Origin: Octopus sinensis
Taxonomy: Eukaryota
Length of the DNA stretch: 16,795 nucleotides
Assembly (NCBI RefSeq): GCF_006345805.1
Contig: NW_021825005.1
Coordinates: 1 to 16,795 of the forward strand
Reading direction: 5' to 3'
The position numbers and the translations under genes are program-made. The notes under the pieces were generated by a model. The model made no database searches. It saw only the letters and a program-made list of their open reading frames with translations, and was not told the origin of the DNA. Positions within the stretch are counted from its first letter, which is position 1; the number at the start of each line of letters is the position of its first letter. Positions 4,791-15,799 of the stretch are shown in pieces.

Positions 4791-5270
4791 TCGTTTTCAA
4801 GTTCTCATTTAATATAATCAAATTCAAACTAGCTTAACATTTTTTCAGATATTCGCGTGCACACGTTTGCGCGAGTGTGAGTATATGTTTGCGTCTGGGA
4901 GCGTATCTATGTGGGTGAGTGGTGTGTGTTAAGGTAAAAGTATACGGAAACACACTAATCAAGCGAAAGAAAATAATAAAATTAAAATTATATCTCATAA
5001 AATATGCATACGTAATCATTGTCGATGTTCTATTTTTCCCATTTTTACCACTTCCCGCCCTATACAATATCCTGCTTTGCAAACCTTTAGTTAAAGCTTT
5101 CATTTTATAATACCATTTTTCTCTCTCTTATTACGTAGCAAAAGAAACTAAACCCGCATTTTCCGCTCCCAAAAAACATTTATAAGCCATCAGTTAACTC
5201 TTAGTTTTTTTCTTCTGCAAACAACTAAAGTATACTTTTTCATTTGATATTTCAATATTTTGATGTTTCA

Positions 5271-5633
5271 AGGCGGCGAGCTGGCAGAAACGTTAGCACG
5301 CCGGGTGAAATGCTTAGCAGTAGTTCGTCTGTCTTTATCTTCTGAGTTCAAATTCCGCCGAGGTCGACTTTGCCTCTGTCTGTCCTTGTTTGTCCCCTCT
5401 ATGTTTAACCCCTTGTGGGCAATAAAGAAATAAGAAACGTTAGCACGCAGCGCGAAATGCTTAGCGGTAGTTCGTCTGTCTTTACGTTCTGAGTTCAAAT
5501 TCCACCGAGGTCGACCTTGCCTTTCATCCTTTCGAGATCGATAAAATAAGCACCTATCAAATAATGGGGTCGATATAGTCGACTAGTCCCCTAACCCAAA
5601 ATATCAGGCCTTGTGTCTATAGTAGAAAGAATT
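5271..5633 (+). mobile_element. SINE family A dimer
   Basis: Head AGGCGGCGAGCTGGCAGAAACGTTAGCACG at 5271. An internally deleted first unit ends in the CCCCTTGTGGGCAATAAAGAAATA module, and the element restarts at AGAAACGTTAGCACG (5433). It ends TAGTAGAAAGAATT. Confidence 0.9.
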
Positions 5634-5635
5634 AA

Positions 5636-5863
5636 AAGACGGTGAGCTGGCAGAATCGTTTGCACACCAGACAAAATGCGTAACAGCATTTCTTCCCGGC
5701 TCTACATTTTGGGCTCCAATGCCACCGGTGTCTACTTTGCCTTTCATCTTTTTTCGCGGTCAAGAAAATAAGTACCAGTCAAGTATTGGAGTCGATGTAA
5801 TCTACACCCTTCTACCCCTAGAATTGCCAGCCTTATACCAAAATTTGAAATAATTTTATTATT
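5636..5863 (+). mobile_element. Older SINE family A monomer
   Basis: AAGACGGTGAGCTGGCAGAATCGTT head, CTTTGCCTTTCATC, AATAAGTACCAGT, GGAGTCGATGTAATC and an ATT tail. Confidence 0.82.
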
Positions 5864-6056
5864 AAGCGGTAGTGTTAGAGCGTTAGACAAAAGGCTTAGC
5901 GATATTTCTTCTGACTCCTTCCACCGAGGTCGTTTTTGCCCTTCGTCATTTCGGGATTCGATAAAGTGAGTATCAGTCAAGTACTGGAGTCGATGTAATC
6001 GACTTTCTCCTTCCCTCAAGTATGTTGGCTTTGCGCCAAAGTTAGAAAGAATATTT
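5864..6056 (+). mobile_element. Older, partly deleted SINE family A monomer
   Basis: GCTTAGCGATATTTC, TTCCACCGAGGTCG, GTACTGGAGTCGATGTAATCGACT and TTAGAAAGAATATT. Confidence 0.75.
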
Positions 6057-12198: not shown

Positions 12199-12503
12199 TG
12201 GAGCACATGGTCTAGTGGTTAGAGCAGCGGACTCGTGGTCGAGAGATCGTGGGTTCGAATCTCAGACCGGGCAATGTGCAAGTTTATGAGCGAAACACCT
12301 AAGCTCCACGCAGCTCCGGCAGAAGGTAATGGCGAACTTCTGCTGACTCTTTCGCCACAACTTTCTCTCACTCTTTCCTCCTGAATCTTGCAGCTCACCT
12401 GCGACGGACCGGCGTCCCGTCCAGGTGGGGAACCTATACGCCAAGGAAACCGGGAAACCGGCCCTTATGAGCCAAGCATGCCTCGAGAAGGAACAAAAAC
12501 AAA
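12199..12503 (+). mobile_element. tRNA-derived SINE family E, full length with a 12-bp target-site duplication
   Basis: Box A TGGTCTAGTGG (12208-12218), box B GGTTCGAATC (12252-12261) and an A-rich AACAAAAACAAA tail. The TSD is ACGTTACTCGTG (12187-12198) / ACGTTACTTGTG (12504-12515). Confidence 0.92.
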
Positions 12504-14921: not shown

Positions 14922-15197
14922 TTTCAGATTTTGCACAAAGCCTGCAATTTGCGTAGGCGTGGAGTAAGTCGGTTATATGGCTCAACTAGGACTTATTTCA
15001 TTGACACCGAAAGGAGGAAAGGCAAGGTCGGCCCCGACGGCGTTTGAGCTCAGAATGTAAAGACAGACGAAATGCTGCTAAGCAATTTGCCCGAAGTCCT
15101 AACGATTTGCCATTTTACCACTTTAAGTGTCCTTTATATCAATGACCCTGGATAGATGAAATATGCAGTCGACCGTGGTTGAATTTGAACTTACAAG
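14922..15197 (-). mobile_element. Old SINE family A monomer (14922-15123) plus a second fragment (~15135-15197)
   Basis: CCGAAAGGAGGAAAGGCAAGGTCGGCC, TTTGAGCTCAGAATGTAAAGACAGACGAAATGCTGCTAAGCA and later GTCGACCGTGGTTGAATTTGAACT are reverse complements of family A motifs. Confidence 0.8.
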
Positions 15198-15251
15198 CAT
15201 GATGATAGCTGTTCTATATTTAAGAGATGAGGAATTATGTACATTATTTAC

Positions 15252-15455
15252 ATAAGGGTAGAGGAACATCGCAAAGCTGTGGCACGGGAGATATTGATAA
15301 ATCGGGTATAGCTAACCATGTATGGAAAATGGAGACCACCTCCCCTTGGGAGTTAAAATAAACACAATACACAGAGAACACCCTGGAAAAATACGATAAG
15401 TAAAAGAATATGGGAACCGGTATTAAGGAAGAATAAGAAAATATTAGATTTATAA
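15252..15455 (+). pseudogene. Frameshifted C-terminus of a PLE GIY-YIG endonuclease domain
   Basis: Stitching across frameshifts gives IRVEEHRKAVAR / GDIDKSGIANHVWK / NGDHLPL / VKI / ...RE..WK..R..KE / IWEPVLRKNKKILDL* (last segment 15408-15455). This fits the PLE pattern R..EH......G...S.IA.H.....H......KI...E.....R..KE...W..L. Confidence 0.75.
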
Positions 15456-15470
15456 GCCATAATTGCCCAC

Positions 15471-15540
15471 GGGCATATGGCGTAGTGGTTAAGAGCGCGG
15501 GCTACTAGCACCAAGATTCCGAGTTCGATTCCAGGCAGTG
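15471..15540 (+). promoter_or_regulatory. tRNA-derived segment (type 2 Pol III promoter) inside the PLE 3' region
   Basis: Box A TGGCGTAGTGG (15478-15488) and box B GTTCGATTCC (15523-15532) at tRNA-like spacing. The acceptor and anticodon stems are imperfect, so this is not a functional tRNA. Confidence 0.75.
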
Positions 15541-15606
15541 AATAATAGTATAATAATAATAATACTAATAATAAAATAATAATAATAATATAACAACAAC
15601 AACAAC
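15541..15606. repeat. (AAT)n-(AAC)n tract internal to the PLE
   Basis: Directly visible. Confidence 0.95.
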
Positions 15607-15654
15607 ATCGAAAAATACCTTAGGAATGAGAACCAGGGTTCGAAATGTCCCCAA

Positions 15655-15700
15655 GACACCTGATGAAGGCTGGAGGATATATCAGCCGAAACGTTGTGTT
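15655..15700 (+). ncRNA. Minimal type I hammerhead ribozyme
   Basis: Stem I GACAC (15655-59)/GTGTT (15696-700). Core CTGATGA (15660-66) plus one extra A. Stem II GGCTG (15668-72)/CAGCC (15683-87), then GAAA (15688-91). Stem III is palindromic and loopless (AACGTT), with a GUU cleavage triplet at 15693-95. Confidence 0.88.
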
Positions 15701-15799
15701 AACAACAAACAAAATGAGGACAAATATCCGTCAAATGTAAATAATGTAAATAATGTATGATGATAGCTGTATATCATTAGTTGAATTTATATTCTAACT

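What the first reader, a model, noticed from the sequence alone, without database searches (positions are those of the whole stretch)
15471..15700. Penelope-like element carrying a tRNA-derived Pol III promoter upstream of a hammerhead ribozyme: a possible self-contained promoter-plus-ribozyme small-RNA cassette
Seen in sequence: a tRNA-like box A/box B begins 16 nt after the stop of the GIY-YIG remnant. It is followed by (AAT)n(AAC)n and then a complete hammerhead core, all inside one TSD-bounded insertion. There is no run of three or more T on the + strand from 15471 to 15757, so no Pol III terminator. Established: PLE terminal repeats (pLTRs) commonly contain type I hammerheads. I do not know tRNA-type promoters as a standard pLTR component. 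Inference: Pol III could start near 15471 and the ribozyme could define the 3' end at 15695, giving an RNA of ~225 nt. That would make this region a SINE/retrozyme-like unit mobilised by PLE machinery, or an internal promoter for tandem PLE copies.
Basis: partly seen in the sequence, partly recalled or inferred. Interest (0 to 1): 0.82.

Follow-up and report, generated by a model that had tools for sequence, protein, structure and literature searches.

The report
Penelope retrotransposon with tRNA-type promoter
A high-copy, protein-coding Penelope-type jumping gene carries a tRNA-derived head in its terminal repeat and lacks four-T stop signals over its whole 2.6 kb, so it is likely read by RNA polymerase III, an enzyme thought to serve only short non-coding mobile elements.

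Summary
The tRNA-like A/B head (15471-15540) is a fixed part of the terminal repeat (pLTR) of one abundant Penelope/Poseidon-type family. It follows the ORF end in 25 of 30 loci chosen by protein alone. In tandem copies it lies upstream of the next ORF's ATG (15626).

Of 30 position-ordered copies, 19 begin at the head, and several are ORF-less units with their own TSDs. No site of the 2,578-nt unit has TTTT on the sense strand in more than 7% of copies (codon-shuffle P about 0.02; control PLEs show no depletion).

Best reading (0.5): a captured Pol III internal promoter drives both full-length RNA and SINE-like solo pLTRs.

The hammerhead is the ordinary minimal, dimer-type PLE motif, it lies inside the ORF, and 0 of 25 copies end at the cut site.

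Against: the boxes are not more conserved than their flanks; a hairpin and a TATA-like site could also explain the 5' ends; RNA reads were uninformative; translation of uncapped RNA is unexplained. I found no such PLE in print, but Repbase and Dfam could not be searched.

The parts
15199..15212 (+). Left target-site duplication, 14 nt
   Evidence: Exact repeat of 15757-15770; longest repeat between the two flanks
15213..15253 (-). Inverted copy of the family's 3' 'tail' (PLE-type 5' inversion)
   Evidence: Matches the 3' ends of other copies on the opposite strand at 88-100%
15252..15455 (+). Broken C-terminal remnant of the PLE endonuclease domain, with frameshifts and a 61-nt deletion; stop TAA 15453-15455
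   Evidence: tblastn to P0028 residues 706-774, E 4e-7; alignment to copy L045. The GIY-YIG label rests on recalled motifs; Pfam gave no hit
15449..15455 (+). TATA-like TTTATAA overlapping the stop codon; its TATAA starts about 34 nt upstream of tRNA position 1 in undeleted copies
   Evidence: Sequence; family context. Function untested
15457..15480 (+). Imperfect hairpin centred just before tRNA position 1; hot spot of fold-back inversions
   Evidence: -9.5 kcal/mol; 342 perfect fold-back sites against 398 natural junctions in G000
15471..15540 (+). tRNA-derived head: box A 15478-15488, box B 15523-15531; likely Pol III internal promoter
   Evidence: family-wide. No clear parent among 10 genomic tRNAs compared
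15541..15606 (+). (AAT)n(AAC)n tract of variable length; 5' leader of the ORF; other elements often insert here
15626..15754 (+). First 43 codons of the PLE ORF, beginning with ATG
   Evidence: Frame continues into the conserved N-terminus in L169; aligns with P0053 from its residue 22 (E 9e-38 for L169; E 8e-4 for the window)
15655..15700 (+). Minimal type I hammerhead: helix I 15655-59/15696-700, core 15660-66, extra A 15667, helix II 15668-73/15682-87, GAAA 15688-91, palindrome 15690-95, predicted cut after 15695
   Evidence: Helices I and II form in the predicted fold (z -1.92); fits the min-HHR consensus of PMC4209133
15757..15770 (+). Right target-site duplication; the copy ends at the first of the family's two 3'-end clusters

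Best explanation
The segment is the terminal repeat of an autonomous Penelope/Poseidon-type retrotransposon family that carries a tRNA-derived head upstream of its ORF start, and this head likely acts as a Pol III internal promoter that would transcribe both the full 2.6-kb element and short solo repeats. Shown: head, leader, ATG, hammerhead and tail lie in this order in the pLTR, at both ends of complete copies; most copies begin at the head; the sense strand has no family-wide TTTT. Inferred: Pol III starts 2-7 nt before tRNA position 1 of the upstream pLTR, reads through the ORF and the downstream pLTR, and stops at the first T-run of the flank. The element's RT starts inside the RNA at the two tail sites, as shown for the anole element PAc. 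Starting in the downstream pLTR gives full or 5'-truncated copies such as this window. Starting in the upstream pLTR, or on RNA of a solo pLTR, gives 300-400-nt SINE-like copies. The hammerhead would cut only as a dimer or with protein help and does not set the end of the mobile RNA. How an uncapped RNA is translated is unexplained; the A-rich leader or ribozyme-made circles are guesses.
For: Fixed position: 25 of 30 protein-selected loci have the head right after the ORF end; 25 of 30 position-ordered heads are followed by the hammerhead part; tandem order in L152, L159, L164, L167; complete two-pLTR copy L327. Discrete 5' end: exact 19-mer counts fall 8,121 > 5,275 > 1,005 > 624 along the element, about 2.7% per nt across the head start against about 0.2% per nt upstream. 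19 of 30 copies end between -22 and +7, none between -23 and -76 (rough Poisson P 2e-12). No terminator: 208 stretches (95 kb, at least 17 copies at every position) show no TTTT site above 7% of copies but 13 TTT sites above 50%. Near-full copy L091 has 0 against 3.1 expected from synonymous-codon shuffles (P 0.022-0.025) and 6.0 from base composition (P 0.0003). Controls: 61 other PLE ORFs 235 observed against 218 expected; 30 with similar T content predict 6.8 runs (P0 0.001); 19 other ORF groups of this genome 62 against 66.7 (summed by hand). Of 20 control PLE loci with a recognisable hammerhead, 0 have A/B boxes in the pLTR, 18 have TTTT there and 10 a TATA-like motif.
Against: Boxes are not more conserved than flanks: box A 8.4% and box B 3.4% substitutions against 5.0% (box B P 0.12). 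The lower CpG decay in box B (12% against 19%, P 0.03) is matched by an unrelated CpG at 13%. The TTTT result is one family and modest under the strictest null, and I had read L091 by eye before counting. GGGG is also absent family-wide (L091 1 against 1.9 expected), and 9 of 61 controls have no TTTT either. Control loci include several copies of the same families. A hairpin sits at the 5' cluster and fold-backs there are as common as natural junctions. A TATA-like site lies at a distance that also fits Pol II. RNA reads show no start at the head, though that library cannot show one well. Known Pol III-driven elements are non-coding and at most about 1.3 kb (PMC10886601).
Confidence: 0.5

Rival explanations
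1. The head is a passenger: an old tRNA-SINE fragment fixed in the pLTR of the source element. The element is transcribed by Pol II, from the TATA-like site at the stop codon or by read-through. Copies cluster at the head because the hairpin makes RT stop or fold back, or because the Pol II start falls there.
For: No excess conservation of the boxes; hairpin of -9.5 kcal/mol and 342 perfect fold-backs; 10 of 20 control pLTRs have a TATA-like motif; the promoter of D. virilis Penelope resembles LINE internal promoters (PMC2377424); needs no cap-independent translation.
Against: Does not predict the lack of TTTT over 2.6 kb. Many 5' ends at the head join the flank with little or no fold-back (L171, L193, L197, L161, L086). 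A stall would be expected at the hairpin's 3' base rather than its loop (inference). Neutral decay of dead copies predicts flat conservation under either model.
Confidence: 0.25
2. The head is a working Pol III promoter but matters only for short RNAs: solo pLTRs spread as a SINE of the PLE, while the ORF mRNA is made by Pol II.
For: Head copies outnumber ORF-linked ones about 5 to 1; TSD-bounded ORF-less copies exist; Pol III elements are short (PMC10886601); avoids the translation problem.
Against: TTTT is missing in the ORF as well as in the pLTR. Head-start (78) and ORF-linked (45) copies share the same non-CpG variants in like proportion, so no separate SINE lineage is seen. L150, L157 and L161 start at the head and run into the ORF.
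Confidence: 0.2
3. One reading: Pol III starts at the head and the hammerhead ends a roughly 225-nt RNA that is the mobile unit (retrozyme or Sm-alpha type).
For: Promoter and hammerhead are adjacent, as in schistosome Sm-alpha (PMC6765202); core bases are intact in this copy.
Against: 0 of 25 copies end at the cut site; coverage shows no step there; ends cluster further on; the motif lacks a helix III loop and lies in the ORF; for PAc, cleavage was not needed for insertion in vitro and no RNA-seq reads began or ended at the site (PMC11167929).
Confidence: 0.05

Closest known systems
Penelope/Poseidon-clade PLEs (D. virilis Penelope; PAc of Anolis carolinensis)
   Same: One ORF with RT and C-terminal endonuclease; partial tandems forming pLTRs; inverted 5' copies; 30-40-nt tail with two 3'-end sites; minimal hammerhead overlapping the ORF start; promoter in the pLTR (PMC8557442, PMC11167929, PMC2377424)
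   Different: The promoter position holds a tRNA-type A/B head; no T-runs in pLTR or ORF. Penelope has a LINE-like internal promoter with an intron; no intron was seen here
TRIMp3 elements: Cassandra (5S), Helenus (tRNA), Ajax (5S)
   Same: Small-RNA-derived Pol III promoter inside a terminal repeat, proposed to come from a SINE insertion; solo repeats outnumber full copies (PMC10886601)
   Different: Those are non-coding LTR elements of 311-1,263 bp with PBS and PPT; this is an autonomous, protein-coding PLE of about 2.6 kb
[quoted passage not shown]
   Same: tRNA-related Pol III promoter next to a hammerhead (PMC6765202, PMC2770079)
   Different: Non-coding tandem repeats with canonical hammerheads that release monomers; here the hammerhead is minimal, lies in an ORF and does not define copy ends
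tRNA-derived SINEs (SINE2)
   Same: Solo copies have a tRNA head, a 3' part recognised by a partner RT, and TSDs
   Different: Head and body are the partner's own terminal repeat; no separate lineage detected

Membership tests
Penelope/Poseidon PLE | Single ORF with RT followed by a C-terminal GIY-YIG endonuclease | tested here: met
   RVT_1 E 6e-10 in L043; L091 reads across RT to the endonuclease region; 48-63% to 19 RT-bearing or related proteins. The GIY-YIG name comes from recalled motifs; Pfam gave no hit
Penelope/Poseidon PLE | Partial tandems (pLTR), inverted 5' copies and an optional 30-40-nt tail | tested here: met
   3' ends cluster at 142-166 and 183-184 of the reference
Penelope/Poseidon PLE | No Zn-finger-like linker between RT and endonuclease (present in Neptune and Nematis) | tested here: inconclusive
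   None seen by eye in translations; no tree with named references was built
Metazoan PLE minimal hammerhead | CUGANGA, one extra base before helix II, long helix II, 4-5-bp helix I, palindromic 15.2-16.2 without loop | tested here: met
   consensus and Lottia examples with the same C-G-U-U in the supplement of PMC4209133
Metazoan PLE minimal hammerhead | Self-cleavage as dimer or with protein help | not testable with these tools
   Needs an in vitro assay
Pol III type 2 (tRNA-type) promoter | Box A and box B at tRNA spacing | tested here: met
   15478 and 15523, 45 nt apart
Pol III type 2 (tRNA-type) promoter | No run of 4 or more T inside the transcription unit | tested here: met
   No site above 7% of copies over 2,578 nt; P about 0.02 under the strictest null
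Pol III type 2 (tRNA-type) promoter | Boxes more conserved than flanks | tested here: not met
   little power among neutrally decaying copies
Pol III type 2 (tRNA-type) promoter | Transcript starts just upstream of box A, Pol III-dependent | tested here: inconclusive
   Genomic 5' ends cluster there; unstranded cDNA reads list no start there
Retrozyme or Sm-alpha type | Non-coding unit whose ends are set by the ribozyme | tested here: not met
   Hammerhead lies in the ORF; 0 of 25 copies end at the cut site
Independent tRNA SINE | Own lineage with diagnostic changes, or own TSD around head plus tail | tested here: not met
   No non-CpG site separates 78 head-start from 45 ORF-linked copies; 25 of 30 heads continue into the PLE hammerhead part
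TRIMp3 (Cassandra, Helenus, Ajax) | Non-coding LTR element with PBS and PPT | tested here: not met
   The repeats are PLE pLTRs flanking an RT-endonuclease ORF; PBS and PPT were not searched

The most novel reading that the evidence does not exclude
An autonomous, protein-coding retrotransposon has switched to RNA polymerase III: it captured a tRNA promoter, purged Pol III terminators from a 2.5-kb ORF, makes its RT-endonuclease from uncapped (perhaps ribozyme-circularised) RNA, and sheds its own terminal repeat as a SINE in tens of thousands of copies.
Probability: 0.45. Interest if true: 0.85.

Novelty: new variant of a known kind. Interest (0 to 1): 0.66.

Why it matters
The usual division is that autonomous retrotransposons use Pol II and SINEs use Pol III (stated in PMC10886601). 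A Pol III-driven PLE would break it and give a natural case of a long protein-coding Pol III RNA, which raises a testable question about cap-independent translation. It would also show a route to SINE birth directly from an autonomous element's terminal repeat, and offer a system to test what PLE hammerheads do, since ribozyme, start codon and promoter lie within 250 nt. Even if the promoter is dead, such solo pLTRs are likely to be miscounted as SINEs in repeat annotation.

Tried and rejected
Rfam and ARAGORN found neither head nor hammerhead. Pfam gave no GIY-YIG hit. Parent tRNA: best local scores were Arg-TCT 60 and Ala-TGC 59 among only 10 genomic tRNAs; undecided, and Ser tRNAs were not in the sample. 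A search for a sister PLE family in G000 returned the same family in all 30 loci and 14 stretches fetched. Run search: no RNA holder listed. Raw reads of three runs (one study, organism B, unstranded cDNA, about 6% of each read): depth follows copy number, 62-68% of laid reads run on into unlike sequence, no start listed at head or cut site, no GT-AG joint among 15 shown (22 not shown); uninformative for Pol III. A two-strand fold of the hammerhead did not show the dimer helix III. The lower divergence of head-start copies (5.7% against 7.5%) was set aside because many were chosen as best hits. Earlier findings: three look-ups, nothing shown. Ferbeyre 1998 and Lunse 2017 were not held. Rejected: private SINE insertion; chance motifs; ribozyme-ended mobile RNA.

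Full report
Observation. The insertion spans 15213-15756 between exact 14-nt TSDs. It holds an inverted 41-nt copy of the family's 3' tail, a broken endonuclease remnant, a stop at 15453-15455, a tRNA-like head with box A at 15478 and box B at 15523, an (AAT)n(AAC)n tract and a hammerhead core. There is no TTT between 15471 and 15785. Rfam and ARAGORN score neither motif. The organism looks like an octopus from its repeats; this is recalled, not shown by a call.

The family. The window is one decayed copy of a large family in G000. Exact 19-mers occur 8,121 times for the part before the hammerhead, 5,275 for the head, 1,005 for the 3' UTR just upstream of the head and 624 for the endonuclease. 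These are lower bounds, since copies differ from each column's commonest letter at about 6-8% of sites. Near-full copies encode RT (RVT_1, E 6e-10) followed by the endonuclease region. The best 19 of 21 homologues are 48-63% identical; the only named cluster members are uncharacterised barnacle proteins. Of 30 loci chosen by protein similarity alone, all belong to this family and 25 have the head directly after the ORF end. Of 30 position-ordered heads, 25 continue into the hammerhead part; the other 5 break off in the microsatellite. The head is therefore part of the pLTR. This copy has lost 14 nt after the stop and 61 nt of the endonuclease relative to L045.

What the pLTR is. In tandem copies the order is endonuclease end, head, microsatellite, hammerhead, tail, ORF body (L152, L159, L164, L167; both pLTRs in L327). 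The frame from ATG 15626 runs through the hammerhead and tail into the conserved N-terminus and aligns with the N-terminus of P0053 (E 9e-38). So the hammerhead is coding sequence, as in the anole element PAc, whose ORF starts at stem II (PMC11167929). The head lies in the 5' leader, where D. virilis Penelope has its internal promoter (PMC2377424).

The hammerhead. Helices I and II form in the predicted fold. There is an extra A before helix II and no helix III loop. This matches the minimal PLE motif, which did not cleave as a monomer and cleaved weakly as a dimer (PMC4209133). Control PLEs carry the same motif. Copy ends ignore the cut site: 0 of 25 end there, coverage has no step there, and 3' ends cluster at two sites about 50-75 and 92-93 nt further on (that count favoured long matches). 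Two such sites are the RT start sites in PAc.

Evidence for a start at the head. Among 30 position-ordered copies, 19 have their 5' end between -22 and +7 of tRNA position 1, none between -23 and -76, 6 further upstream and 5 inside the head (two rows are arms of one insertion, and ends beyond about -7 often reflect fold-backs). The genome-wide counts drop about ten times faster across this point than upstream of it. ORF-less copies with 11-13-nt TSDs exist (L171, L185, L197, L180, L063), and L150, L157 and L161 start at the head and run into the ORF. Head-start and ORF-linked copies share non-CpG variants, so the short copies are not a separate SINE lineage. A caution: a hairpin lies at this point, and perfect fold-backs (342 sites) are about as common as natural junctions (398). 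A TATA-like motif overlaps the stop about 30 nt upstream.

Evidence for Pol III over the whole unit. Pol III stops at four or more T (established, recalled). Across 208 aligned stretches covering each of 2,578 positions at least 17 times, no site has TTTT in more than 7% of copies, while 13 sites have TTT in most copies. L091 has none against 3.1 expected from shuffling its own synonymous codons (P 0.022-0.025), 3.7 from dinucleotide shuffles (P 0.03) and 6.0 from base composition (P 0.0003). Sixty-one control PLE ORFs of at least 300 codons show 235 against 218 expected, 9 with none. Thirty controls of similar T content predict 6.8 runs, and 2 of them have none. Nineteen other ORF groups in this genome, some probably spurious, show 62 against 66.7 (hand sum). 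A hammerhead was recognisable in 20 of 47 control loci: none has A/B boxes before it, 18 have TTTT in the pLTR, 10 a TATA-like motif; several are copies of one family. Limits: one family, a test that was not blind, and GGGG is also absent family-wide, though not significantly.

Results against. Box A is not better conserved than the rest of the head (8.4% against 5.0%), box B only slightly (3.4%, P 0.12), and its lower CpG decay is matched by an unrelated CpG. Raw RNA reads from a related organism follow copy number and mostly run on into other sequence, with no listed start at the head; they show the family in host transcripts, not its own promoter. No intact ORF was found. Translation from uncapped RNA is unexplained, and a two-codon upstream ORF sits in the head.

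Mechanism. Most likely (0.5) a tRNA-derived head, probably once a SINE with an (AAT)n tail, entered the pLTR of the source element and became its promoter. Pol III would read from the upstream pLTR through the ORF and the downstream pLTR into the flank, and internal RT starts at either pLTR would give long and short copies. Rivals: passenger head with Pol II (0.25), Pol III for short units only (0.2), ribozyme-ended cassette (0.05).

Comparison with print. Pol III promoters in terminal repeats are known for non-coding LTR elements (Cassandra, Helenus, Ajax; PMC10886601), and a Pol III promoter beside a hammerhead for schistosome Sm-alpha (PMC6765202, PMC2770079). Ten full-text searches listed no paper on a PLE with a tRNA-type promoter; three returned nothing, and most listed papers were seen only as listings. 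The library lacks most subscription journals, and Repbase and Dfam were not searchable, so the family may already be catalogued. Seen: parts 1-2 of 4 of PMC4209133 and of PMC11167929; passages of PMC8557442, PMC7761336, PMC6765202, PMC2770079, PMC10886601, PMC2377424, PMC8967140 and PMC13282606; supplement passages of PMC13282606 (one file) and PMC4209133 (one of its files could not be searched). Ferbeyre 1998 and Lunse 2017 are known only through citing reviews. Unseen supplements, such as curated mollusc PLE libraries of PMC8557442, may bear on novelty.

Verdict. A real, family-wide feature: a new variant of a known kind. Interest 0.66; 0.85 if Pol III transcription of the ORF is shown.

Noticed in passing
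window:15457-15470: The natural sequence upstream of the head is a reverse complement of the head's first 10 nt with a 2-nt insertion. It may be a fossil fold-back from the event that joined the head to the ORF end.
   Followed up: partly
L007, L010, L027, L192, L199 (microsatellite of the pLTR): Other non-LTR elements sit inside the (AAT)n tract of many copies; their ends resemble Dong/R4-type LINEs (label recalled).
   Followed up: no
hammerhead position N7 (window 15664): The one strongly variable non-CpG site in the hammerhead core is N7 (T 70%, A 28% of 119 copies), the free position of the ribozyme and an Asp/Glu change in the ORF; suggests several source elements under both constraints.
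   Followed up: partly
window:8457-8530, 12199-12270, 4010-3940 (minus): Three other tRNA-like heads with A and B boxes, from unrelated SINE-like repeats.
   Followed up: no
window:1610-2610, 5260-5950, 14990-15110 (minus): A different dispersed repeat, in part as a 185-nt tandem of 3.2 copies.
   Followed up: no
L086, L087, L089, L090; L005, L006; L141-L144: Identical insertions with identical flanks on several contigs: segmental duplicates or redundant haplotigs, so copy counts are somewhat inflated.
   Followed up: partly
L219-L221, L205, L217, L231, L251: Some control PLE ORFs also lack TTTT, but those with a visible pLTR have T-runs or a TATA motif there and no A/B boxes.
   Followed up: partly
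L281-L286: PLE-like RT sequences in contigs filed under prokaryote MAGs; likely host contamination.
   Followed up: no
L054 (minus strand, from 243): A 280-codon frame of a different RT element, possibly another PLE clade, beside a family copy.
   Followed up: no
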